DNA of 64,000 nt from the NCBI RefSeq assembly GCF_017094525.1, contig NZ_CP064788.1, forward strand, positions 975,030 through 1,039,029. Reading direction: 5' to 3'. The position numbers and the translations under genes were made by a program. Positions within the stretch are counted from its first letter, which is position 1. Every line of letters begins with the position of its first letter. This DNA is from Halapricum desulfuricans (lineage in GTDB: Archaea > Halobacteriota > Halobacteria > Halobacteriales > Haloarculaceae). The notes under the pieces were generated by a model, which saw only the letters and a list, made by a program, of their open reading frames with translations, was not told the DNA's origin and did no database searches. Shown here in pieces: positions 9,181 through 59,000 of the stretch.

Positions 9181-10288
9181 GACTGTCCGGGAGAACGACC
9201 CGGGTCAGCACTCCGGGCGTGACGAGACGGCAACATCGCGAGGTAGCGAGACAGTCCGAGAGCACCGCAAACAGACGACGCGACGCACCTACGTCGTCGC
9301 CGCGGGATCGACGCTCGTGCTCGTCGTCGTGTCGCTGCTCGCGATCGCTCTCGGATCTGTACACGTTCCGTTGCCCGACGTCCTCGCCGCGCTCGTCGGC
9401 GGCGGGAGTCAGACCCAGCGCACGATCGTCTGGAACGTTCGCTTGCCCCGGATCCTCGGTGCCGTCGTCGCCGGGGCGGGGCTAGCGGTCGCCGGCGCGG
9501 CGATGCAGACTGTCCTCCGGAATCCGCTCGGCGCGCCGTACACGCTGGGCATCTCGCAGGCGGCAGCGTTCGGCGCGGCCGTCACGGTCGTGTTCGGGTT
9601 TGGCACCGCGGCCTCGGAGTTCGCCTCGCTCGGGCCGTACGTGACGACCGTCGCGGCCTTCCTTGCGGCGATGGCCTCGACTGGACTGATCCTCCTGCTG
9701 GTGATATACCGACAGGCCACTCCGGAGACACTGATTCTCACGGGCGTCGCCGTGGGATCGCTGTTCACTGCCGGGATGACGCTGTTGCAGTACTTCGCCA
9801 GCGACACCGAGGTCGCGGCGATCGTCTACTGGACGTTCGGTGACGTCGGCCGCGCCGGCTGGCCCCACGTCGTCGTCATGGGCGTCGTCGTCGCGGTCGG
9901 ACTGGCGTACTTCCTGGCCAACGCCTGGAACTACGACGTCATGGACTCGGGGACGGCGACCGCGAAGAGCCTCGGCGTCCCCGTCGAGTCTCTGCGGATC
10001 AGGGGGATGGCCGTCGCGTCGTTCGTGACCGCGATCGTCATCTCGTTCGTGGGAATCATCGGCTTCGTCGGACTGGTCGCCCCCCACATCGTCCGGATGC
10101 TCGTCGGCGGGACCGAGCGCCACTTGTTGCCGATCACGGCCGTCGTCGGCGGTGCGCTGCTGGTCGCGGCCGACACGCTCGCGCGGACGGTCCTCGCGCC
10201 GGTCGTCCTGCCGGTCGGGATCCTCACGTCGTTTCTGGGCGCGCCGCTTTTCGTCTATCTCGTGATCAACGGGAGGGAGTACTGGTGA
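9161..10288 (+). CDS. ABC transporter permease, FecCD family
   Basis: Polytopic membrane protein with FecCD/BtuC-like glycine-rich helices. Overlaps the neighbouring genes. Confidence 0.8.
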   Translation: MISMSGETVRENDPGQHSGRDETATSRGSETVREHRKQTTRRTYVVAAGSTLVLVVVSLLAIALGSVHVPLPDVLAALVGGGSQTQRTIVWNVRLPRILGAVVAGAGLAVAGAAMQTVLRNPLGAPYTLGISQAAAFGAAVTVVFGFGTAASEFASLGPYVTTVAAFLAAMASTGLILLLVIYRQATPETLILTGVAVGSLFTAGMTLLQYFASDTEVAAIVYWTFGDVGRAGWPHVVVMGVVVAVGLAYFLANAWNYDVMDSGTATAKSLGVPVESLRIRGMAVASFVTAIVISFVGIIGFVGLVAPHIVRMLVGGTERHLLPITAVVGGALLVAADTLARTVLAPVVLPVGILTSFLGAPLFVYLVINGREYW

Positions 10289-48843: not shown

Positions 48844-48936
48844 CGGAAGAGACACACTCATCTCGACACGTGTGACCACCAGATACTGGCCTCGACAATC
48901 GTGACTGCTTTGACCTGGGACGCCGAGAGACCCTGT

Positions 48937-50229
48937 ATGGACACAGACGTTTCCCAGTCGACGGTCGGCGGGACAGTACAGGCCCCGCCGTCGAAGAGTT
49001 ACACACACCGGGCGATTCTGGCGGCCGGCTACGCTGAGGGCGCGACGGTGCGGGATCCGCTGGTCAGTGCCGACACAAAGGCGACGATGCGCGCAGTCGA
49101 AGCCTACGGCGGCAGTGTCGAGCGACACGACGATCATCTCGAAGTTGACGGTTTCGACGGGCTTCCCGATGTCCCCGACGACGTGATCGACTGTGCCAAC
49201 AGCGGGACGACCATGCGGCTCGTGACCGCGACGGCCGCACTCGGCGACGGGCTGACGGTCCTCACCGGGGACGACTCGCTCCGATCGCGTCCGCAGGGTC
49301 CGCTACTCGACGCTATCGACCAGCTCGACGGTCGGGCGGAGAGCACCCGGGCGAACGGTCAGGCGCCGCTGGTCGTCGGCGGTCCCGTAGCGGGCGGGTA
49401 CGTCTCGATTCCGGGCGACGTTTCCTCTCAATACATCACGGCCCTGCTGATGGCCGGCGCGATCACCGACGAAGGGGTCGAGATCGGCCTCGAAACCGAA
49501 CTCAAGTCCGCGCCGTACGTCGACATCACGATCGAAGTTCTGGAGGCGTTCGGCGTCGAGACCGAATCGATCGCCGACGGGTTCACCGTCGCGGGCGGAC
49601 AATCCTACGATCCCGCCGGCGGCGAGTACACTGTCCCCGGCGATTTCTCGTCGATCTCATATTTGCTCGCGATGGGCGCGCTGGCCGCGCCGGACGGGCT
49701 GACTGTCACCGGTGCGTATCCGAGCGCGCAGGGCGATTCGGCGATCGTCGACGTGCTCCAGCGGATGGGTGCGGACCTCACCTGGGACCGCGAAGCGGGC
49801 GAAATTCACGTCAGCAAGTCCGATCTCACGGGCGTCGAAGTCAGCGTCGCGGACACGCCTGACCTCCTGCCGACGATCGCCGTCATCGGGGCTGTCGCCG
49901 ACGGGACGACGACGATCGTCGACTGTGAGCACGTTCGATACAAGGAGACTGACCGCGTCGCCGCGATGGCCGAGGCGCTCTCCGCGATGGGCGCGTCGAT
50001 CGAAGAGGAACACGACACGCTGACGATCCACGGCGGTGACAGCGATCTCGACGGGACGACCGTCGACGGCCGAGCCGATCACCGGATCATCATGTCGCTG
50101 TCGGTCGCGGGGCTCGTCGCTGACGGGACGACGACTGTCGAGGGAATCGAACACGTCGACGTGTCGTTCCCCCACTTTTTCGATGAACTCGACGCACTCG
50201 GCGGCGATGTGACAACCTCACGCGCCTGA
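48937..50229 (+). CDS. aroA: 3-phosphoshikimate 1-carboxyvinyltransferase (EPSP synthase)
   Basis: [20 protein letters not shown] and DHRIIMSL are conserved EPSPS motifs. Confidence 0.9.
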
Positions 50230-50322
50230 CGCGATTCGAGACACACGCCCGTCGCTCCGAAAATCCTGTCGAACGAATTGAGTTGGGAATACGCGAAACG
50301 CAGCTGCTCAGTATCTCTAGCC

Positions 50323-50337
50323 AAACATCTGGCGCAT
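50323..50337. repeat. left direct repeat (attL-like) of the integrated element: aaacatctggcgcat, matching the secY 3' end at 57530-57544
   Basis: 14-17 nt identity with the last codons of secY (MMRQMFG). Confidence 0.65.
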
Positions 50338-50441
50338 AATCCATGTTTTGGGGACACACAGGGAACCCAACAGCGGTGAATATCGACATCCGACTCAGTA
50401 ACAGCGGCTTCTGAAAATCCTTACTTCGCGGGCCGTCGTAA

Positions 50442-51533
50442 ATGCCGATAATGAGTCACGAGTGCGACGATTGCGGACAAGAGTTTGACACACTCTCACG
50501 GCTCCGCCTGCACGATTGTCCCGGCAACCAGCCTGCCGAAGCGACAGAGAACTCCACGACTGAGACGACAGACGCATCTACTGGAACCTCGCTTGATGAT
50601 TCCGGCCTTGACCGAGAGAAACTCGAACGCGAGTACCCCGACGTAGTTGGAGACCTGCCCGAACTCTTTGACGACGCGCGCGAGGGGGATCTATCAGCTC
50701 TGTTTCGTGCAATTGCCGAATACGAACGAGTGCTGGCGAAAGTCTTCCGCGGCGACGCACCGGGCGGCGACGAGCTCCACCGTGACCTCTTGTTCGCCTA
50801 CTACGAACCGCTCGCCGATGGACTTGCTGCCGCAGCGGAGACGAACGGATGGGACGCACTCATTGAATTTGCTGACGCCTATGATCCGCGCGAACAGGAC
50901 GCGCTCCCTGAAGTCGGGCACGTCATCGCCAATGCACTCGGCCGCTCGGTGATTCGGACCCGCCAGGACGACGGCGTCGATGCTATCCCGGCTGCCGCGC
51001 TGGCGTTTCTCGGTGCGATCCCTGAGTATGTTGACGAGCACCACGTCGCGTACGAGGAGTCGTACACCTACGGCTGGGGGATCGGCCATCCCGAGTATTC
51101 CGTCGCTGACCAGCTCCTCGCGCTCGCTGAAGACGAACCAAAGTTCGTGAAAATCACGCTGAACACGGCGTTCTACGTAGATCAGCACGCCGCCATCGAC
51201 GTGTTAGAGACGCTCGTCACCGACGATGAAATCTCCGGCACACGCAGTACCCTTGGGTTGGAAACCGACCTCACGGAGTTCTACTTCCAAGCCGTCGCCG
51301 ACCTCGAAACAGAGGCACTGCTCGGGCCCCACGCCCCGCCGTACTGGGACGAGGACGACGACCTCCCTCGCGTCGTTGATGTCGATCCCGACGTGAAACA
51401 GCGGATTCGAGCCCTTGCCCACGAGACCGGTGTTGCTGACGGGCTTCCCGCCGAGTGGGCACTTCGAGACCTTGAGCCAGGGCCGATGTCGGAGATGCTG
51501 GACATGATGAGCGCGAGGGACGATACTCCCTGA
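50442..51533 (+). CDS. hypothetical protein with an N-terminal C2H2-type zinc finger
   Basis: HECDDCGQEFDTLSRLRLHDCPG. Confidence 0.5.
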   Translation: MPIMSHECDDCGQEFDTLSRLRLHDCPGNQPAEATENSTTETTDASTGTSLDDSGLDREKLEREYPDVVGDLPELFDDAREGDLSALFRAIAEYERVLAKVFRGDAPGGDELHRDLLFAYYEPLADGLAAAAETNGWDALIEFADAYDPREQDALPEVGHVIANALGRSVIRTRQDDGVDAIPAAALAFLGAIPEYVDEHHVAYEESYTYGWGIGHPEYSVADQLLALAEDEPKFVKITLNTAFYVDQHAAIDVLETLVTDDEISGTRSTLGLETDLTEFYFQAVADLETEALLGPHAPPYWDEDDDLPRVVDVDPDVKQRIRALAHETGVADGLPAEWALRDLEPGPMSEMLDMMSARDDTP

Positions 51534-51584
51534 TCAGTCCAACGGCCCCACACGATTTTATTCGTTGCTCGCCTCACTCGACCT

Positions 51585-52580
51585 ATGTCGTTCAGTGTCT
51601 CGTGGCACACGCTTCTTGACGAACTCGATGATCTCCCGGAGGATGCTACACTGCTCACGCCGCTGTCACACGACCGCTTTCGCGTGACCGACGTACAAGA
51701 GCAACGAGTGGTCATCGAGTTTCTCGACCGCGACATTGACGAGTCGCGGCCGCTCCAACGGGACCAGTTCGAGACGCTGTACCGCCGACTCACTGACGAG
51801 TATGATGGCTTTGACCTCGACAGGCTCCCGCCTGACGCCGACCCGTACCCTGCGGTGCTGTCTGTGCATCCACGGTTCGAAATCGACGAAGACCAGGGTG
51901 TGCTCGTCGAGAAAGAAGGCCCGACGGCCAGCCAACTCCTTGACGCCGAAGACGAATCCACGACTGTGGAGGACCGAACTGAGCCAGAGCTGGACGTGTA
52001 TGCTGATGCGCTGTTACTCGTGGATGCCCTCGAACGTCACGAAGTCGAGGTCCTCGAGGACATGGAGACGGACGCGCTGGTCAACCTCTATACGCTGCTC
52101 TCGGACGTGCAACGCAACGCGAACGACCTCCGGCAGGACGTGGCCGACGTGCTGTTGAACCGCCTCCACCACGACCGGCCGGTGAGCGGGCCGTTCGGTT
52201 CCGTCCAGCGAACCACGCGGCGCAACCGCTCACTCAAAGACGACGACGAGGTGCTAGAAACCCTCGAAGCGGCTGGCATCGACCGCGAGCGCGTTTTGGG
52301 CGTGGATCGTGACAAGGTAGACGACGCCTTGGACGTCACCGAACTGTCGGAGAGCGACGTGTACGAGATCGAGCAGTCCGAGTACGTCCGCAAAGCCGAG
52401 GTAGACGAGGAACGCAAGGAAACCCGGCTTCAGGGACTCAAAGATCAACTTGCTGCCGCTGAGGGTGACGAGGCCGAGGAACTCCGCGAGGAGATCGAAG
52501 ACCTCGAAGATCGCATCGAGGAGTTGACCGAGTTCAAATCGGGTGCATCGTTTCACACCCGCGCCGGGGGTGAGCCATGA
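51585..52580 (+). CDS. hypothetical acidic protein
   Basis: 331 aa with a C-terminal coiled-coil. Confidence 0.45.
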   Translation: MSFSVSWHTLLDELDDLPEDATLLTPLSHDRFRVTDVQEQRVVIEFLDRDIDESRPLQRDQFETLYRRLTDEYDGFDLDRLPPDADPYPAVLSVHPRFEIDEDQGVLVEKEGPTASQLLDAEDESTTVEDRTEPELDVYADALLLVDALERHEVEVLEDMETDALVNLYTLLSDVQRNANDLRQDVADVLLNRLHHDRPVSGPFGSVQRTTRRNRSLKDDDEVLETLEAAGIDRERVLGVDRDKVDDALDVTELSESDVYEIEQSEYVRKAEVDEERKETRLQGLKDQLAAAEGDEAEELREEIEDLEDRIEELTEFKSGASFHTRAGGEP

Positions 52581-52927
52581 CCGAGCGCGACGAGGAACGA
52601 GAAGAGCGCATCAAGATGGAGATTATCGTGGACGCTTATACTCAGGACGAACAGGCGATGGGTTGGCATATCTATCTGGAGGAGATGATGGACTTCCCCT
52701 TTGAGGTGCGCTGTATCGACGAGCAGGAGGTCTCACCGCTGGAGGAAGGGGAGACAGTTCGTGTGATCGGTAAGCCATCATCGGAGCCGTCGCTCCGCCA
52801 GCAGTTCGTCACCATCGAGTGGAACGACCGCGAGTTCGGTGTCCCACTGAGCCAACTGGAACCTGTCGAAGCCAGCGCTGACACTGAGCAAGCTGTCGCC
52901 GACTGGCACTACTGGCTCGAACGATAG
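52577..52927 (+). CDS. hypothetical acidic protein
   Basis: 116 aa, translationally coupled (ATGA overlap). Confidence 0.4.
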   Translation: MTERDEEREERIKMEIIVDAYTQDEQAMGWHIYLEEMMDFPFEVRCIDEQEVSPLEEGETVRVIGKPSSEPSLRQQFVTIEWNDREFGVPLSQLEPVEASADTEQAVADWHYWLER

Positions 52928-53104
52928 CCTCACCAGTGTGTTGGGTTGCGAATTCTCTGCTGAGCGTTCACGGTTTCAGCCAGTTTCGACGGTCTACCCT
53001 TCGATTCTCACCTTGACCGACCCACCGAACCCTATCAGAAACCAGGACTACCAGCGATCAGCTGGGAAATCAACTGGAAACCAGCTGCGCTGCCTACTGA
53101 TGGC

Positions 53105-53175
53105 TGTGACGTATTCCGGTTAGATATATAAATATTTGAGTTTGCCGGAATTCCGGTTAAGTATATAAGATAGCG
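53105..53175. promoter_or_regulatory. AT-rich putative operator/promoter with two direct repeats ATTCCGGTTA(GA/AG)TATATAA and a CCGGAATTCCGG palindrome, upstream of the AbiEi-like gene
   Basis: Sequence tgacgtattccggttagatatataaatatttgagtttgccggaattccggttaagtatataag. Confidence 0.45.
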
Positions 53176-53191
53176 CGATAACCTAGACATC

Positions 53192-53803
53192 ATGCTGCTG
53201 GAGCCCCCAGACAGGGATCGCGGATTCAAGAAAGAACGCATCCATCGCGTCCTGCTCAACCATCCAGACGGCGAGCTTAGCCGCTACGAAATCACACAAC
53301 AAGCCAACGCCTCAACCTCATGGGCTTACGACTACCTCGACCAACTCGAGAACGACGCCCTCGTCGAAGACACGGTCGTTCTGGACCCGCGAACGCTGTA
53401 CGACCGTTGGCGCGAGACTCGGATCCAACCCAACACAATCCAGGTTTCCCTCCAACAGCCCCTCGATCGCATCCAAAGCACCGGACTGGACTATGCGCTC
53501 ACAACCGACGAGGCCGAACAGATCCATCAAGGATTCCTGTTCCCCTCGACAACCGCCGTCTACGTCCATGAAGCCGACATCGAGGAGTGGCTTGAGATGA
53601 TCGAACAGTCGGGGCTAATTGGCGGCGGGAACACGGAACTTCGCGCCACCGACGAACACGTCTTCTACAACGCCCAGACCGTCGAAGAGATGACGACAGT
53701 CTCCATCCCACAGCTGATCGTTGACTTGCTTGACTCGGACGGTCCCGCCGTTGAAGCGGCCAATCGCCTCATGTCCCGCCACCACGGGTTAAACGATGAG
53801 TAG
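53192..53803 (+). CDS. AbiEi-like antitoxin / transcriptional regulator (N-terminal winged HTH)
   Basis: 203 aa, wHTH-like N-terminus; overlaps the downstream nucleotidyltransferase gene by 8 nt. Confidence 0.45.
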
Positions 53804-54623
53804 GGCCGACCGCAGCCAATACACAGACGCGGTGACGCAGTATTCGGAACGCGAACTGCAAGACATCCTGACGGTCGCGGAGCCACCTGTGTGTCTCCTC
53901 GGTGGCTGGGCCGTCCACATCCATGTGACCGACGCGTTCCAAACCCAGCAAGGCCGTCGCTACATTGGCTCCCGGGATATTGACATCGGTGTCCACATTG
54001 ACCCTGAGTGGACATCTGAAGAGCTGTCAGAGACGCCGGTCGCCCTGACGCTCACCCGTATCGAGGATGACCTTGAGTATAACCGCGGGCGCTTCGGTTT
54101 CTACCAACAGTTTCACCGCGAGACGGGTGATCGACTCACTGATGCGGACGCCAGTGAACTGCCACCTCACGAACTGTTCCGTGTAGACATCGATGTCATT
54201 CCTGACACGACGGCGTTGGACGCGTTCGAAGACCGGTTTGGGTTTCGGCCGCCTGCCGAGCCGCTGCTCAAACCGGTGTTCCAGCACGGAGTCGGTGACC
54301 CGCTCTCCGACTACGTGGACTGGGACGTTCCGGACGGGGTTGGGATTGCCCCGCCAGCGGCATTAGCGGCGATGAAAGTTCGGGCGTTCCCGGATCGAGA
54401 CAAGAGCCACAAGCGCCTGAAAGACCTGGCAGATCTTCACGCGTTGCTGTGGTACGTTACCGACTACGAGGAAATTACGGCAGCAACCCGGGAGAGGATT
54501 ACGGCGGATGACATCGCGGGGTTTGAGCAGGCACTCACAGACGGAGAGTACGACCAGGCAGCATCATTACTCCAAGTAGACTCCACGACCGTTCGACAGT
54601 CAATTGAACGATTTTTGCAGTGA
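53796..54623 (+). CDS. AbiEii/AbiGii-like nucleotidyltransferase toxin family protein
   Basis: NTase fold motif [11 protein letters not shown]...[13 protein letters not shown] (GG...S.D.D). Size about 275 aa. Confidence 0.5.
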
Positions 54624-54705
54624 ATCGTGATGCGTCCTCCATCTTGACAGGGCGTTTGGAGGAGTCGGCCCAGACGTGAAGTGATCGGCGGAGCCACTGC
54701 TCACT

Positions 54706-54864
54706 ATGGCGCGACGCTCCGAAACCTGTCCCAACTGTGGCCACAGCTTCAGCTACAACGAAGCGACCGGGACCGGCCCATCAGAATTCATGAACGAAGG
54801 CCAGTGTCCCAACTGTCGGTACTTCCCAACCGGCGTAATCAGCGGAATTGAATCGCCGAGTTAA
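54706..54864 (+). CDS. small zinc-ribbon protein (52 aa)
   Basis: MARRSETCPNCGHSF...GQCPNCRY gives two CPNC pairs. Below the ORF-track cutoff; I translated it by hand. Confidence 0.4.
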   Translation: MARRSETCPNCGHSFSYNEATGTGPSEFMNEGQCPNCRYFPTGVISGIESPS

Positions 54865-54890
54865 CAACGAGAAAGTGTCTGGATCTGGAT

Positions 54891-56063
54891 GTGTTCAAGA
54901 TCCCCGATCCAGACGGTTACCTTTCGGCATCGGACGTGAAAGACGTAGCGGAAGAAGTCATTACTCCACTCCCGTTGCCGGGTGTCGAGGGGAGCCCCCT
55001 CGACCCCGGCGACATCTGGCTCGTCGTCATCTTGGCTTGCGTCAACCAGACCTCGATTTGGGAAACCTGCAACGACACCAACGGAACGCCGTGTGACGAC
55101 ACTGTCTTCACATGGCTCCATACGCTCGACCGAGCGTGGCTCGAGTTCGTCGCTAACCGTCTGCTCGGACGCCTCGCCATGACGATTCTCGACCCTGACC
55201 GGTCGAGAATCGTCTCCATCGACTTCATCGATAACCCCTATCATGGCGAGCACTACGCCGACGACGGCGAACTCTGCTCGATGGCTCCCAAGGACGGGAC
55301 AACTACCTGCCACCGCTATTGCACGGCCTACGTCGTCTCCAACGAGAAGCCGGTGACGCTGGCGATGACGTATGTCCGCAGTGACGAAGATGAGGCTGAC
55401 GCGGTCGAGCGCGTGCTCGCCCGCGTCGAGAACTACCCCTTCGAGATCGACCTGCTGCTTGCCGACAGCGGCTTCTACAACGAGCGCGTCATCCGCCGTG
55501 CTCGCGATATCGCCGCAACGGTCGTCCACGTTCCGAAGAAGGGCGAGCGCATGAAAGACAAACTCGACGTCCACAAGTCGTACATGACGACCTATCGCAT
55601 GTACAAAGACAGCGAGCGGGAACTGCGCTTCCCGCTCGCGGTCGCTGTCTCCTACCAGAACGGTGATCGTGGCAAGCACGGTGAGGTTGTCCGTGGCTAC
55701 GTCGCGTGCGGCGTTACTGATCGCTCGGCCAAGCAAATCGAACGCCTCTACAGGAAACGCTCTGGCATTGAAACAACCTACCGCTTACTCCGGCAAGCAC
55801 GCGGGATCACGACGACGCGTGATCCTGTCGTGCGGTTTGCCATCATGTTGGTCGCAGCATTGCTGGAGAACCTGTGGCTCGTGCTCAGGTGGGCGGTCGT
55901 CGCCCGCCCGCGCCGGGGCGGGCGCGACCTGCCCGAGGAGTTCACATTCAAGACGTTCCGTGACTGGATTCGGCACGAGCTGGAAGAAGAGTTACGACGC
56001 CGGTGGAAAGTCAAAGCGAACGGGGTTGGTGTGCGGGCGTCACAGGCAACGGCCGCGGGCTGA
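54891..56063 (+). CDS. DDE transposase of a haloarchaeal ISH-type element (IS4/ISH3-like)
   Basis: 390 aa. A DDE region (...LLLADSGFYNE..., ...RSGIETTYR...) typical of haloarchaeal IS4-superfamily transposases. Confidence 0.65.
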   Translation: MFKIPDPDGYLSASDVKDVAEEVITPLPLPGVEGSPLDPGDIWLVVILACVNQTSIWETCNDTNGTPCDDTVFTWLHTLDRAWLEFVANRLLGRLAMTILDPDRSRIVSIDFIDNPYHGEHYADDGELCSMAPKDGTTTCHRYCTAYVVSNEKPVTLAMTYVRSDEDEADAVERVLARVENYPFEIDLLLADSGFYNERVIRRARDIAATVVHVPKKGERMKDKLDVHKSYMTTYRMYKDSERELRFPLAVAVSYQNGDRGKHGEVVRGYVACGVTDRSAKQIERLYRKRSGIETTYRLLRQARGITTTRDPVVRFAIMLVAALLENLWLVLRWAVVARPRRGGRDLPEEFTFKTFRDWIRHELEEELRRRWKVKANGVGVRASQATAAG

Positions 56064-56141
56064 CCGGGGTCAGCCCACGGCCTGTTCACTGGGCGGTGAG
56101 CGACAGCTGTCGGCAGACACCGGCGAGATTTGGTTGCTATC

Positions 56142-56166
56142 GTCTGTTCGGAGCGGTGAATCGGAA
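56142..56166. repeat. short copy (e) of the hairpin repeat family; flanks only: GTCTGTTCGGAGCGGTGAATCGGAATC
   Basis: Contains both conserved flank motifs, joined without the central hairpin. Confidence 0.4.
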
Positions 56167-56211
56167 TCATCTCGATCTACACCGCGGGAGCAGCCGAAAC
56201 TGATAGTCAAA

Positions 56212-56880
56212 TCATACAGAAAGTGACTTTTTCGGGCCGTTCAGACAGGCCCCTCTCGACTCATTTGGGAAGTAACGGGTATACCAGTTCAGCCGCACCG
56301 CAATTTCATTCCTGAGCCGTGTCTGCTTCCTCTTTCCCGGCACGTTGTCAAACAGTTGCTCGACAGCCTGCGGCTTCAGTGCGAGGACCGCATCACCGTC
56401 CCGTGTCCCGTCTAAATCTAGCCCAGCCGTAGTGTGTTGTCGTTTGTACTCTGAGGTCGATGCGTGCACGTCGAAATCATCCTTCAGATTGATATCACTC
56501 TTGTCACGACAGGGGTGCCCGTGCTCGAGCTCCAACCGGTCGTGCATCTGATCGTTCTCGACAACCGAATAAAATGACTGGACTGACCGATAGTAACTGT
56601 CGATCGTCGTATCCGACTGATCCGTGATCGATTGGATATACCCTATGACATCCTCAGTCACTGCCGCAAGCGGATCAATACCCCGCTGCTCGCAATAAGC
56701 CAACCAGTACCTGACTTCCCTCCCGCGAGTGTCCGACGTCGATCCTTTGGTGCCCTGCTTCTGCGACTTGAGACTGTCTAGGTATAGGCCCAGAAGTTCC
56801 TCATTCTCGGGAGAAATCTGATTTTCGTCGGGCGTTGCAAACTGCCCTTTGTCGTTTCGCTTCGTCATAGAGTCATCCAA
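56212..56880 (-). pseudogene. tyrosine recombinase/integrase; N-terminal core-binding domain intact, catalytic domain missing (interrupted at the IS junction)
   Basis: SAM-like CB domain (LAYCEQRGIDPLAAVTEDVIGYI...YYRSVQSFYSVV), then the reading frame ends about 10 aa into the expected catalytic domain. No R..HxxR..Y region is found beyond the IS. Confidence 0.55.
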
Positions 56881-57470
56881 TGCCGTGTACCATCAACGAC
56901 GATACTCTCCACCGACAGGGTCGATCGTTTCTCGAGGTAGATCAGTGCCTCGCGCACCAACGGCTCCGGCTCATTCAATACGTCAGCAACCTTTTCTGCC
57001 GATCCATCGATGTCACCCTTCTCGGCTACCTCTGCGGCGCTCAAGAGTTGTTCCTGCGCCTTTTTCAGTCGCAAATCCTGAGTGTTCGTCGTTGATTCTG
57101 CATCCGCTGGCGGTTCGGGTGCCGCAGGGAGTTCTTCATACGCATCCATGGCCGTCGATTCGACTTGCTCCTGGGAGTACCCCTCTGAGACCATCATCTC
57201 GTCAATTTGGTTTTGGAGGGCCTCGGTCCGGTTCTCAACTTCCTCCATGGCCTTCTGATGCATCTGCTCAGCTAATTCGACTCCATCAGCTTCGACTCCC
57301 CCGTAAGCACCCAACTCAGATTCGTGTACGTACTCGTCTCTAATTTCTCGATCAACCGCGCGACGAACCAGCGTCGTCAGCGTCTCCCCTTCCTCGAGTG
57401 CCTCCCGCCACTCTTCTTTCTTCTCGGGCGTCACCCGCACATTCAGTTTGACTTTCTTCCGGTCGCTCAC
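56865..57470 (-). CDS. ribbon-helix-helix (CopG-like) domain protein
   Basis: N-terminal VKLNVRVTPEKKEEWREALEEGETLTTLVRRAV is RHH. Co-transcribed with the integrase (16-nt overlap). Confidence 0.55.
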   Translation of the reverse strand: MSDRKKVKLNVRVTPEKKEEWREALEEGETLTTLVRRAVDREIRDEYVHESELGAYGGVEADGVELAEQMHQKAMEEVENRTEALQNQIDEMMVSEGYSQEQVESTAMDAYEELPAAPEPPADAESTTNTQDLRLKKAQEQLLSAAEVAEKGDIDGSAEKVADVLNEPEPLVREALIYLEKRSTLSVESIVVDGTRHWMTL

Positions 57471-57524
57471 ACCCGCAGCTACTCACACTAATAAAATAAA
57501 TCTAGGGTCCCAGCGGGTCCCCAG

Positions 57525-59000
57525 TTAACCGAACATCTGGCGCATCATGGGGTGCATCTCCATGAGCTGTTCTTCGGCGATCTCCTCGTAGAGCTTGTAG
57601 GTAATCGAGACAGTCAGCAGCAGCCCCGTTCCGGAGACGCCACCGATCGTCCCGAGCATGTTCGCGCCGACGGCGAGCAGGCCAACGAGTGCACCGCCGA
57701 TGACAGTCACCTGCGGGATGTATCGTTCGAGCACCTTCTCGAGGACGCCGGGGTTCTGCCGGAACCCGGGGATCTGCATCCCGGAGTTCTGGATCTGCTG
57801 GGCCGTCGCTTCCGGCCCCATGTCGGTCGTCTCGACCCAGAAGATGGCGAAGATCGCACCGCCGATGACCATGAACGTCAGGTCCACGGCCACCCGCAGC
57901 AGGATCTGCCAGACTTCCGGACTCCCGGTCGGTGTCGTGACGAACCACATCCAGTCCTGGCGCGTCTGGATCGGAGCCAGGTAGTAGAACAACCCACTGA
58001 TGGGCTGGCCCTGCGCGTTGTACGCACCGACCCAGGCCGGCAGCGAGGCCTGGGAGTTGAGCAGTTGCCCGATGAACTGGATGTTCTGCTGGAGCGCCCG
58101 CACGAGGATCATCGGCAGGACGCTCGCGTAGATGAGTTTGACCGGGAAGCGCCCGCGTGCGCCCTTGACCCGGGCGTGACTCAACGGGATCTCGACCCGG
58201 ACGGACTCGGCATAAACCACGATCACGAAGATAAGGATCGTCGTGATGATCGCGAGGATGCCCGAAATCTGTCCGCTCCCGCTCTGGAACCCGAAGAAGA
58301 GGTTCTCGGCGGTGACGGGTAGATTGCCGAGCGCCATCCGAATATACGCCGGGATGATACCGAGCGTCGCCCCGGGGAGTGCCTCGATAGCGATGATGCC
58401 GCCGATGAGCCGCTGGCTCACGCCGGCGATGATGAACAGCCCGACGCCGCTGCCGACGCCCCACTTGCTGATCACCTCGTCCATGTACAGGATGAGAACA
58501 CCGCCGACGAACACCTGCCCGAACATGAGCATGTTCACGCCGAACGTGCCGCCCGGGAACGTCTGTGCGAGCGTCTCACTCGCCGGCAGGAAGTTCCCGG
58601 CGAACACCATCGGGAGTCCCGTCAGCACGACCATCGCGATCACAAGCAGCTTCTGCAGCCCCTGATAGAGGATCTGATCGCGGGGGTTGTTCTGGGTGTC
58701 GAGCCCCAGCAGGTTCGCACCGCCCAGTAGTTGCAGGACGATGCTCCCCGTGACGATCGGGCCGATACCGAGATGGACGATCGTCCCCTGTCCGCCCGCG
58801 AGGATCGATCGGAAGCGGCCGAACGCGTCGCTACCGGCACCGCGCTCGAGCCCGAACAGGAACACGTTCGTCAGGAAGAAATACAGGACCAGGACGCCCG
58901 CAGTCCAGGCCAGCTTCCGTTTGAACGGCACGTGTCGGTCGGGCCGCTCCACGGAGGGCATGCGGGTGAGCACCGGTTCGGCGGTGTCCTTCCAGCTCAT
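57525..59000 (-). CDS. secY: preprotein translocase subunit SecY
   Basis: 491 aa, 10 TM helices, with conserved SecY segments (GIMPFIY-like, plug). Confidence 0.9.
   Translation of the reverse strand: MSWKDTAEPVLTRMPSVERPDRHVPFKRKLAWTAGVLVLYFFLTNVFLFGLERGAGSDAFGRFRSILAGGQGTIVHLGIGPIVTGSIVLQLLGGANLLGLDTQNNPRDQILYQGLQKLLVIAMVVLTGLPMVFAGNFLPASETLAQTFPGGTFGVNMLMFGQVFVGGVLILYMDEVISKWGVGSGVGLFIIAGVSQRLIGGIIAIEALPGATLGIIPAYIRMALGNLPVTAENLFFGFQSGSGQISGILAIITTILIFVIVVYAESVRVEIPLSHARVKGARGRFPVKLIYASVLPMILVRALQQNIQFIGQLLNSQASLPAWVGAYNAQGQPISGLFYYLAPIQTRQDWMWFVTTPTGSPEVWQILLRVAVDLTFMVIGGAIFAIFWVETTDMGPEATAQQIQNSGMQIPGFRQNPGVLEKVLERYIPQVTVIGGALVGLLAVGANMLGTIGGVSGTGLLLTVSITYKLYEEIAEEQLMEMHPMMRQMFG

What the first reader, a model, noticed from the sequence alone, without database searches (positions are those of the whole stretch)
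50323..57544. 7.2-kb integrated element inserted in the 3' end of secY, bounded by 15-17-bp direct repeats
The last codons of secY (…MMRQMFG*, 57525-57545) are duplicated between aroA and a zinc-finger gene at 50323-50340 (aaacatctggcgcat[a/c]at). The intervening DNA carries non-core genes, an AbiE-like module, an ISH transposase and an integrase-RHH pair next to the right repeat. Integration restores the secY reading frame from the repeat, which is a classic integrase att arrangement but at an essential protein gene rather than a tRNA.
Basis: seen in the sequence. Interest (0 to 1): 0.6.

Follow-up and report, generated by a model that had tools for sequence, protein, structure and literature searches.

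The report
Decayed mobile element inserted at secY's end
A 7.2-kb stretch of foreign DNA sits at the very end of the essential secY gene of a salt-loving archaeon; it is the now immobile remnant of a mobile element that supplied its own copy of the last secY codons, and its relatives lie at the same spot in many other haloarchaea.

Summary
The last 23 nt of secY (57526-57548) recur at 50318-50340 (20/23, exact 14-nt core AACATCTGGCGCAT). These are the only two copies in the window, against 0.01 expected. The distal copy still reads IMRQMFG-stop in frame. GC is 54-62% between the copies and 64-68% outside.

The two genes next to secY are a 201-aa DNA-binding protein and the N-terminal half of a tyrosine integrase. 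They belong to a module found directly after secY, co-oriented with it, in 12 of 13 independent lineages. In the thirteenth it follows an orphan secY-like core. The lineages include Halobaculum, Haloarcula, Halobacterium, Halegenticoccus, Halomicroarcula and metagenomes. Element homology starts exactly at the core.

The window's copy is dead. An ISHla8-like ISH3-family insertion sequence (54817-56277) cuts the integrase just before its first catalytic arginine. The catalytic half is absent from the window.

Cargo is plasmid-type: a weak AbiE-like pair, a CcbP-like protein and a phrog_35116 protein.

No empty aroA-secY site was found, so the left boundary rests on the repeat, the GC step and a conserved arm motif. 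I found no paper describing secY as an att site. Verdict: new member of a known kind.

The parts
50318..50340 (-). Distal att site (P-O-B'): a second copy of the secY 3' end. It reads IMRQMFG-TAG in the secY orientation. Exact core at 50324-50337. By inference, the part towards aroA (TTTGGCTAG and the 88-bp spacer) is the original secY end.
   Evidence: (D12)
50350..50368 (-). P-arm motif GGGTTCCCTGTGTGTCCCC: two GGGnnCCC-like 8-mers with an 11-bp period, about 12 nt 5' of the distal core. Candidate binding site for the integrase or the accessory protein.
   Evidence: A similar motif sits at the same distance in the distal sites of L045, L051 and L059.
50442..51533 (+). Cargo: 363-aa protein with an N-terminal zinc-ribbon-like CxxC pair. 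Function unknown.
   Evidence: weak hits only
51585..52580 (+). Cargo: 331-aa protein of PHROG family 35116 (function unknown). Homologues lie on many haloarchaeal plasmids, including pNRC100/200.
   Evidence: (5e-177)
52577..52927 (+). Cargo: 116-aa CcbP-like calcium-binding protein.
   Evidence: PF11535, 1e-36, full length
53192..54623 (+). Cargo: overlapping gene pair, 203 aa (53192-53803) plus 275 aa (53796-54623). The second is a weak AbiEii-like nucleotidyltransferase. A homologous pair on a Natrinema pellirubrum plasmid is annotated as AbiEii/AbiGii toxin family.
   Evidence: (PF08843, 2e-4, 21.8 bits against a cut-off of 22.5)
54706..54816 (+). 5' part of a small zinc-ribbon gene, cut off by the left end of the IS.
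54817..56277 (+). ISHla8-like insertion sequence of the ISH3 family, 1461 bp. Transposase at 54891-56063. Terminal inverted repeat CG[G/T]TACTTCCCAA. No target-site duplication, so an adjacent deletion is inferred.
   Evidence: NF033541, 4e-124; I14; plasmid copies at about 89% identity align to exactly 54816/7-56277
56278..56880 (-). N-terminal fragment (residues 1-201 of about 372) of a tyrosine integrase. It stops at ...RLNWYT, just before catalytic Arg I. The ORF then runs 21 codons into the IS (to 56212).
   Evidence: No Pfam hit for the fragment itself.
56865..57470 (-). 201-aa accessory DNA-binding protein with an RHH-like N-terminus and a winged-helix-like C-terminus. Its end overlaps the integrase start by 16 nt (56865-56880), as in the overlapping or abutting gene pairs of relatives.
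   Evidence: YlcI/YnfO_N, 5e-4; 73 homologue clusters
57471..57524 (-). P' arm of the element: GGGGACCCGCTGGGACCC (57505-57522) directly after the secY stop. An A/T-rich TTTATTTTAT box follows (57489-57498), about 18 to 27 nt upstream of the accessory gene's GTG start.
   Evidence: conserved in L164, L169, L034, L045, L079
57526..57548 (-). Proximal att site (B-O-P'): the present 3' end of secY. Exact core at 57532-57545. By inference, the last codons TTC GGT TAA come from the element.
57525..59000 (-). secY, the target gene and last gene of the ribosomal-protein operon. Intact, 491 aa.

Best explanation
The region is the immobilised remnant of an integrative element of a haloarchaeal family. 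The family inserts by tyrosine-integrase site-specific recombination into the last codons of secY.

**Proposed mechanism**
- The circular element carried an attP that mimics the secY 3' end: core ATGCGCCAGATGTT plus its own F-G-stop codons.
- On both sides the attP is flanked by paired GGGnnCCC-type motifs.
- Crossover within the 14-nt identical core joined the body of secY to the element's copy of the last codons (57526-57548). SecY therefore stays full length.
- The original secY end was left 7.2 kb away, next to aroA (50318-50340).
- The accessory DNA-binding gene and the integrase gene lie just inside the secY-proximal end, co-oriented with secY.

**Later decay**
An ISH3-family IS inserted in the integrase gene at about codon 201. 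An adjacent deletion removed the catalytic half and an unknown amount of element DNA. A 7.2-kb island remains that cannot excise by itself.

**Shown**
- The repeat and its statistics.
- The GC step.
- The family's fixed position at secY.
- The point where element homology starts.
- The IS limits and the loss of the catalytic domain.

**Inferred**
- The recombination event itself.
- Which half of each repeat is host and which is element.
- The roles of the accessory protein and the arm motifs.
- The deletion.
For: **The repeat.** 20/23 match with a 14-nt exact core, only two copies in 64 kb, 0.01 expected. The distal copy keeps the secY frame and a stop codon. GC is 0.54-0.62 inside and 0.64-0.68 outside.

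**Position of the module in other genomes.** The accessory gene plus integrase lie directly after secY in:
- L034 Halobaculum rarum, L079 Haloferacaceae archaeon 50, L040 Haloarcula regularis, and L045 Halegenticoccus tardaugens (remnant)
- L163, L164/165 and L166-168
- L169 and L170 Halobacterium sp. NMX12-1
- L172-176 and L177-181

L081/82 Halomicroarcula has the module after an orphan secY-like core.

**Integrase identity.** Full-length relatives hit PF00589 at 1e-13 and phrog_1 integrase. Gene calls also carry PF00589.

**Junctions.**
- The closest species, H. hydrolyticum (SecY 94% identical), aligns with the window only up to 3 nt past the secY stop.
- Element P' arms are conserved from that point on.
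- In L034 the SecY tail is ...MFGD*, whereas other Halobaculum have ...MFGSD(D)*. This shows the element replaces the last codons.
- A P-arm motif sits at a conserved distance from the distal core in the window, L045, L051 and L059.

**Decay.**
- IS limits.
- Integrase homology covers residues 2-193 only, and nothing resembling the C-terminal half exists in the window.
- An NCBI protein from Halapricum desulfuricans has the same IS-fused C-terminus.
Against: - No unoccupied aroA-secY junction was found. aroA is not within 10 kb of secY in any of 80 species loci. None of 80 metagenomic aroA loci (up to 90% identity) has secY nearby. The left boundary therefore lacks empty-site proof.
- The window's cargo genes have no homologues in the 80 secY loci (10 kb downstream each). 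The later family loci were not screened for them.
- The IS junction has no target duplication, so the two halves of the island could have different histories.
- No episomal or viral copy of the family was found, and no locus with an intact integrase showed its distal att within 10 to 19.6 kb. A complete reference element with both ends is therefore missing.
- The arm motif was defined after seeing the data.
Confidence: 0.85

Rival explanations
1. Composite island. The right end (accessory gene, integrase fragment, P' arm) and the left part (cargo, P arm, distal att) come from two different elements that sat in tandem at secY. They were fused by the IS-associated deletion, so the 7.2 kb is not one element's remnant.
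For: The IS has no target-site duplication and is flanked by two different truncated genes. Tandem occupation of the site exists in L081/82, where an unrelated 427-aa integrase abuts an orphan secY-like core upstream of the module. Cargo genes have no homologues in the 80 secY loci screened.
Against: Both arms carry the same type of paired GGGnnCCC motif. No third secY-like core or partial att lies inside the island. A single element plus a deletion is simpler. This rival changes the history, not the mechanism.
Confidence: 0.15
2. Chance repeat. The island arrived by another route (IS-mediated transfer, homologous recombination with a plasmid), and the 14-nt match near aroA is coincidental.
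For: No empty site was recovered. An IS is present. Cargo genes are typical plasmid genes.
Against: The expected number of such matches is 0.01 per window. The match keeps the secY frame and a stop codon. It coincides with the GC step and with a P-arm motif shared with distal sites in other genomes. The other end carries a module found at the secY tail in all 13 lineages with context.
Confidence: 0.03
3. The element is still mobile. It would be excised and re-integrated in trans by a full-length integrase of the same family encoded elsewhere in the genome.
For: Both att sites and both arm motifs are intact, and the accessory gene is an intact ORF. Family members are widespread.
Against: No second family integrase is seen in the 64-kb window. 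The rest of the genome could not be searched. Deletion of internal DNA may have removed replication functions.
Confidence: 0.05

Closest known systems
Classical (lambda / pNOB8-type) tyrosine-integrase elements that integrate into the 3' end of tRNA genes and carry a copy of that end in attP
   Same: The logic is the same. Site-specific recombination occurs in a short identical core. The element supplies the displaced 3' end so the target gene stays functional. Direct repeats flank the insert. The integrase gene lies next to one att site and stays whole after integration (in relatives L034, L079, L170, L172 and L177).
   Different: The target is the last codons of an essential protein gene (secY), not a tRNA. 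The element-supplied end can change the protein's last residues (GSDD* to GD* in Halobaculum). The integrase family has no close relative in the phage and plasmid collections searched.
Archaeal integrated elements reported in protein-coding genes: BJ1-related provirus in the HMG-CoA reductase gene, Msmi-Pro1 in a cation-efflux gene, NitGar-E6 in an AsnC-family regulator gene (review PMC8371274, section 19)
   Same: These are archaeal tyrosine-integrase elements with attB inside a protein-coding gene. As in those cases, recombination is untested experimentally.
   Different: secY is not among the reported targets (literature searches found nothing). Here the same target is used across at least seven named genera or families, with a conserved accessory gene.
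SNJ2 pleolipovirus integrase module (IntSNJ2 transcribed with two small accessory genes; review PMC8371274, sections 13 and 27)
   Same: A haloarchaeal integrase in an operon-like arrangement with a small putative DNA-binding accessory protein.
   Different: As the review describes it, SNJ2's accessory proteins are a coiled-coil and a MarR-like protein, not an RHH-like/winged-helix fusion. From my own knowledge, SNJ2 targets a tRNA-Met gene. No sequence relationship was detected or tested here.
SSV-type 'suicidal' integrases (attP inside the int gene, so integration splits int)
   Same: Many copies of the present family have broken integrase genes. This at first suggested a split-by-integration design.
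   Different: Rejected. The att site lies upstream of the accessory gene, not inside int. Five relatives keep a full-length int next to secY. Break points differ between copies.
Bacterial integrative elements that target 3' ends of housekeeping or ribosomal-protein genes (own knowledge, not checked here)
   Same: They use a highly conserved, essential gene end as a reliable landing site and restore it.
   Different: Different domain of life and unrelated integrase lineage. secY was not found as a reported attB in the library searched.

Membership tests
Tyrosine recombinase / phage integrase (PF00589) | C-terminal catalytic domain with the R..K..H-x-x-R..H/W..Y residues | tested here: not met
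   The window fragment ends at ...RLNWYT, before Arg I. It has no Pfam hit, and no C-terminal half exists anywhere in the window. Full-length relatives do have the domain (PF00589 1e-13; motifs in alignment A6). The window gene is a pseudogene of this family, not a working member.
Tyrosine recombinase / phage integrase (PF00589) | Homology of the N-terminal (core-binding) domain to bona fide members | tested here: met
   57% identity to residues 2-193 of the L034 integrase and 84% to L164. There are 10 homologue clusters, several carrying PF00589.
Classical (non-suicidal) integrative element with an att site at a gene's 3' end | Direct repeats of the target's 3' end flank the insert, and the target gene is restored | tested here: met
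   20/23 repeat with a 14-nt core. secY is intact at 491 aa. The distal copy is in frame with a stop.
Classical (non-suicidal) integrative element with an att site at a gene's 3' end | Unoccupied attB in related genomes with the same two flanks | tested here: inconclusive
   The secY side breaks exactly at the core when compared with H. hydrolyticum, which lacks the module. No genome with aroA next to secY was found.
Classical (non-suicidal) integrative element with an att site at a gene's 3' end | Excision or a circular form carrying attP | not testable with these tools
   No episomal relative was found in IMG/VR, INPHARED or PLSDB. Reads or experiments are needed.
SSV-type (suicidal) integrase element | attP inside the int gene, so the int halves lie at the two ends of the insert | tested here: not met
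   att lies upstream of the accessory gene. Int is full length beside secY in L034, L079, L170, L172 and L177.
ISH3-family insertion sequence | ISH3-family DDE transposase | tested here: met
   NF033541 4e-124, 413 bits against a cut-off of 225. PF01609 8e-9.
ISH3-family insertion sequence | Defined ends with terminal inverted repeats, shared with other copies | tested here: met
   13-nt inverted repeat, 12/13 (I14). Copies in 5 plasmids (about 88 to 90% identity, including ISHla8) align to exactly 54816/7-56277.
ISH3-family insertion sequence | Short target-site duplication flanking the IS | tested here: not met
   The flanks ...CAACTGT and GGTATAC... differ. I take this as a sign of an adjacent deletion or recombination between IS copies.
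AbiE (type IV toxin-antitoxin / abortive infection) | AbiEii nucleotidyltransferase toxin | tested here: inconclusive
   PF08843 at 2e-4, 21.8 bits, just below the 22.5 cut-off. PADLOC AbiEii 0.007. A homologue at 73% nt identity is annotated as AbiEii/AbiGii toxin family.
AbiE (type IV toxin-antitoxin / abortive infection) | Upstream AbiEi-type antitoxin/regulator | tested here: not met
   The 203-aa upstream protein has no hit in Pfam, NCBIfam, PADLOC or PHROGs. Only the gene-pair layout fits (8-nt overlap, conserved as a pair).
Ribbon-helix-helix (CopG/Arc/MetJ) DNA-binding proteins | N-terminal strand-helix-helix motif recognised by a family model or fold | tested here: inconclusive
   NCBIfam YlcI/YnfO_N at 5e-4, below cut-off. 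One homologue is named CopG family by UniRef. The AF2 monomer model gives two helices at 15-23 and 31-45 but with low confidence. No PDB sequence hit. The C-terminal 100 residues are confident, and their best, non-significant fold matches are all winged-helix domains.

The most novel reading that the evidence does not exclude
The secY stop-codon region may be a dedicated, pan-haloarchaeal landing site for a previously undescribed integrase family. That family travels with an RHH/winged-helix accessory gene and always sits co-oriented a few dozen bases behind the highly expressed ribosomal-protein/secY operon.

Under this reading the elements rewrite the last residues of SecY. They also make the site a variable island that collects defence and plasmid genes: Kiwa (KwaA/KwaB), an AbiE-like pair, VapBC-like pairs, and MCM or SNF2 helicases. 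The island then decays in place, because the integrase is frequently destroyed.
Probability: 0.5. Interest if true: 0.55.

Novelty: new member of a known kind. Interest (0 to 1): 0.42.

Why it matters
Reported archaeal integrases mostly use tRNA genes, and only a handful of protein-gene targets have been reported, none tested (PMC8371274, section 19). Here an essential, universally conserved gene end serves as attB across many haloarchaeal genera, with a conserved two-gene recombination module and recognisable arm motifs.

This has three practical uses:
- **Annotation.** It gives genome annotators a simple marker for a recurrent variable island: whatever follows secY.
- **Experiment.** It offers a defined attB/attP/integrase/accessory-protein set that could be tested in Haloferax or Halobacterium genetics, and possibly used as an integration tool.
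- **Comparative genomics.** It explains why the gene order after secY is so unstable in haloarchaea.

For the window itself the message is modest. The island is a fixed, decayed remnant.

Tried and rejected
1. **Empty-site search.**
   - The exact SecY and AroA proteins of the window are not on record.
   - The Halapricum desulfuricans protein identical to the window's integrase fragment could not be located on a contig.
   - 80 species loci around secY contain no aroA.
   - 80 metagenomic aroA loci contain no secY and share no synteny with the window.
2. **SSV-type 'split integrase' idea.** It was prompted by many integrase homologues of about 220 aa. I rejected it because break points differ and five copies are intact.
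3. **Search for an episomal or viral form carrying attP.** Two IMG/VR scans found nothing. INPHARED found nothing. PLSDB gave only a 34% relative. Contigs L175 and L176 looked at first as if they lacked secY upstream, but the sequence shows secY there.
4. **Attempt to recover a whole intact element.** Extending the Halobacterium sp. NMX12-1 locus to 19.6 kb past secY gave no distal att. No other intact locus showed one within 10 kb.
5. **Fold and sequence identification of the accessory protein.** Results were weak: PDB profile search, AF2 model with mean pLDDT 69, and Foldseek with E of 0.05 or worse.
6. **A second integrase family at the same site** (427 aa, L081). No further copies were found in any fetched locus.
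7. **The TAACTG shared by the window's secY end and Halapricum/Halosimplex relatives.** This at first suggested the proximal tail was native. L164 shows that CGG(A/T)TAACTGGG is part of the element's P' arm.

Full report
**1. The observation**

The window is a high-GC haloarchaeal chromosome segment. secY (57525-59000, minus strand, PF00344 2e-65) ends the ribosomal-protein operon. aroA (48901-50229, plus strand, TIGR01356 1e-127) converges on it from 7.3 kb away.

The reported repeat exists and is slightly longer than stated. 50318-50340 (TAGCCAAACATCTGGCGCATAAT) matches 57526-57548 (TAACCGAACATCTGGCGCATCAT) at 20 of 23 positions, with a 14-nt exact core. The core, even allowing one mismatch, occurs only at these two places in 64 kb. 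The expectation is 0.01, and no shuffle out of 100 gave two matches. Allowing three mismatches adds only chance-level hits.

Read on the secY strand, the distal copy is ATT ATG CGC CAG ATG TTT GGC TAG, that is IMRQMFG-stop. This is a second, in-frame secY ending with synonymous differences from the one now in use (...ATG ATG CGC CAG ATG TTC GGT TAA).

GC is 0.54-0.62 between the copies and 0.64-0.68 on both sides. There is no tRNA gene nearby.

**2. What lies between the repeats**

From the secY side:
- **P' arm.** 54 nt: GGGGACCCGCTGGGACCC, then TTTATTTTAT.
- **Accessory gene.** 201 aa (56865-57470, minus strand).
- **Integrase-like ORF.** It overlaps the accessory gene's end.
- **Insertion sequence**, then cargo genes on the plus strand.

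The integrase-like ORF has no Pfam hit itself. It is 57% identical to residues 2-193 of a 372-aa protein in Halobaculum rarum (L034). That protein, like its 374-aa relative in L079, hits PF00589 at 1e-13.

The homology stops at window position 56278, at ...RLNWYT. This is one residue short of the conserved TG(C/A)R motif that holds the first catalytic arginine (alignment A6). Nothing resembling the C-terminal half exists anywhere in the window.

The break is caused by an insertion sequence:
- Its transposase is ISH3 family (NF033541 4e-124).
- A 13-nt terminal inverted repeat lies at 54817-54829 and 56265-56277.
- Five plasmid copies at about 88 to 90% identity, including ISHla8 of Halorubrum lacusprofundi, align to exactly 54816/7-56277.
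- There is no target-site duplication. The other IS flank is a truncated small zinc-ribbon gene. An adjacent deletion must have removed the integrase's catalytic half and more.

An NCBI protein from Halapricum desulfuricans has the same IS-fused C-terminus. The window is therefore that species or something nearly identical. The nearest species available for comparison is H. hydrolyticum, with SecY 94% identical.

The remaining cargo is:
- A 363-aa zinc-ribbon protein.
- A 331-aa protein of phrog_35116 (5e-177), with homologues on many haloarchaeal plasmids including pNRC100/200.
- A CcbP-like protein (PF11535, 1e-36).
- An overlapping pair whose second member is a sub-threshold AbiEii match (21.8 bits against a cut-off of 22.5). 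Its plasmid homologues are annotated as AbiEii/AbiGii toxin family.

The 'AbiE-like' label is therefore plausible but weak.

**3. Evidence from other genomes**

This is the decisive part. I fetched secY loci from 80 haloarchaeal species. I then followed homologues of the integrase fragment and of the accessory protein into genomes and metagenomes.

Every lineage with enough context shows the same layout: ribosomal-protein operon, secY, a short spacer (about 50 to 135 nt), accessory gene (197-207 aa), then integrase, all on one strand. The lineages are:
- Halobaculum rarum (L034), Haloferacaceae archaeon 50 (L079), Haloarcula regularis (L040), and Halegenticoccus tardaugens (L045, accessory-gene remnant only).
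- Halobacterium sp. NMX12-1 (L170).
- Metagenomic lineages L163, L164/165, L166-168, L169, L172-176 and L177-181.

The one exception is Halomicroarcula (L081/82). There the module follows an orphan ATGCGCCAGATGTTCGGCTGA, with a different element and a different integrase upstream. This looks like a tandem array at the same site.

That makes 13 lineages. Twelve have the module directly at secY, and in all 13 it sits next to the secY-tail core.

Alignments of the junctions show that host secY sequences agree up to the core. Element sequences agree from the core onwards: the tail codons, paired GGGnnCCC-type 8-mers, and then an A/T-rich box. The closest relatives, L164 and L169 (accessory protein 85 to 89% identical), share the window's P' arm almost base for base.

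The window and H. hydrolyticum align for 6.5 kb through the operon. The alignment stops 3 nt after the secY stop. H. hydrolyticum has no module there, and its downstream sequence looks like the T-rich terminator type seen in many unoccupied genomes.

In Halobaculum the element visibly replaces the protein's end. Three other species end ...MFGSD(D)*, while the occupied genome ends ...MFGD*, using low-GC codons.

**4. The distal side**

Second copies of the secY tail lie 1 to 5.4 kb downstream in L010, L035, L045, L051 and L059. GC is lower in between (0.51-0.60, against 0.64-0.68).

In the window, L045, L051 and L059 the distal copy is preceded, about 12 nt upstream, by a pair of GGGnnCCC-like 8-mers with an 11-bp period. 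This is the same kind of motif that follows the proximal core.

With a loose pattern the motif hits five places on the two strands of the window, two of them at the two att sites. Because I defined the pattern after seeing the data, I treat it as supportive only.

The window's distal flank (88 bp to the aroA stop) contains an ATTTTCGG element like the native secY terminators of other genomes. This fits with its being the original secY downstream region.

**5. Mechanism**

The best-supported reading is classical integrase recombination. The present arrangement is secY-B-O-P' ... P-O-B'-aroA, with crossover inside the 14-nt core. The mismatches just outside the core (ATG against ATT on one side, TTC GGT TAA against TTT GGC TAG on the other) mark the host and element arms.

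Some points are inferences:
- **Accessory protein.** Its N-terminus is RHH-like (sub-threshold hit; two short helices in the model). Its confident C-terminal domain has best fold matches that are all winged-helix domains, but none is significant. It is a candidate arm-binding factor or regulator.
- **Arm motifs.** The 11-bp spacing of the 8-mers would suit a dimeric binder.
- **Promoter.** The TTTATTTTAT box lies about 18 to 27 nt upstream of the accessory gene's GTG start (57470). This fits a haloarchaeal TATA box with a leaderless transcript (established knowledge of haloarchaeal promoters).
- **Read-through.** The co-orientation with a strongly expressed operon raises the possibility of read-through expression.

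The window's copy cannot move on its own, because it lacks every catalytic residue.

**6. Limits**

- I could not find an unoccupied aroA-secY junction. Gene order after secY, and around aroA, is not conserved even among close relatives.
- No intact family member showed its distal end within 10 to 19.6 kb.
- No episomal form was found.
- The island could be a fusion of two tandem remnants. I give this about 15%. It would alter the history but not the mechanism.
- L051 and L059 have native-looking sequence after the proximal stop, which a simple model does not explain (notebook, 'unexplained').

**7. Comparison with what is known, and novelty**

Integration into a gene's 3' end with restoration by attP is textbook behaviour for tRNA targets. 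The review of archaeal tyrosine recombinases lists only a few protein-gene targets, none tested and none secY. Full-text searches for secY with integrase, attB or provirus terms found nothing relevant.

The family is not SSV-type. It has no relative in the phage collection, and only a 34% relative among plasmids.

I therefore class the finding as a new member of a known kind. The mechanism is ordinary. The target and the integrase/accessory module appear to be undescribed, and the module recurs across haloarchaea. The particular copy in this window is a decayed remnant.

Interest: 0.42.

Noticed in passing
window 52577-52927 (+): A 116-aa protein matches the whole of Pfam PF11535 (CcbP calcium-binding protein, 1e-36). 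I know this family from cyanobacteria. Leptolyngbya plasmids appear among the blastn hits of the cargo region.
   Followed up: no
window 51585-52580 (+): A 331-aa protein is a full-length match to phrog_35116 (5e-177, function unknown). It has about 70 to 73% nt-identical homologues on many haloarchaeal plasmids, including Halobacterium pNRC100/200. There is no match in the phage collection.
   Followed up: partly
L040 12161-13137 (Haloarcula regularis) and window 56212-56300: Two independent copies of the integrase gene are interrupted by different insertion sequences at nearly the same codon (...RLFWQTGC| and ...RLNWYT|), just before catalytic Arg I. Seven of the twelve copies with an integrase gene are truncated, at varied positions.
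   Followed up: partly
L081/L082 7977-9330 (Halomicroarcula sp., CP126161.1): An unrelated 427-aa integrase with a C-terminal zinc ribbon abuts an orphan secY-like core (ATGCGCCAGATGTTCGGCTGA at 9305). The accessory/integrase module follows directly. This suggests tandem elements of two integrase families at one site.
   Followed up: partly
L172-L176 (for example L172 11816-13397) and L177-L181 (for example L177 12051-20594): Intact relatives carry defence or replication cargo right after the integrase. One lineage has KwaA/KwaB (Kiwa). Another has an MCM helicase, an SNF2-type helicase and a DUF499 protein (precomputed Pfam hits).
   Followed up: no
L010 11450-12480 (Halorientalis brevis): Only about 1 kb separates two secY tails. 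It holds just an AbrB/SpoVT-like gene plus a PIN-domain (VapBC-like) gene. It is either a minimal remnant or a mini-island at the same site.
   Followed up: no
L040, L050, L075 (Haloarcula spp.), from about 11470 onward: A low-GC island of sulfatase and glycosyltransferase genes begins directly after secY. L050 and L075 share a distinct post-stop sequence (GTAGAAC..TATAGAACGGG) and A/T-rich secY tail codons. This hints at another insertion type at this site.
   Followed up: partly
L051 11447-15170 and L059 11441-14355: The distal secY-tail repeats carry the P-arm motif. The sequence after the proximal stop, however, resembles native secY terminators (..CTYTTTTCGGCGTYCT..) rather than an element P' arm. 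The simple integration model does not explain this.
   Followed up: partly
L013-L078, secY 3' ends: SecY C-terminal tails vary by clade (G*, GD*, GSD*, GSDD*, GNE*, GGGGS* and others). In occupied genomes they switch to the element's version with low-GC codons, for example TTTGGAGATTAA in L034, L045 and L177.
   Followed up: partly
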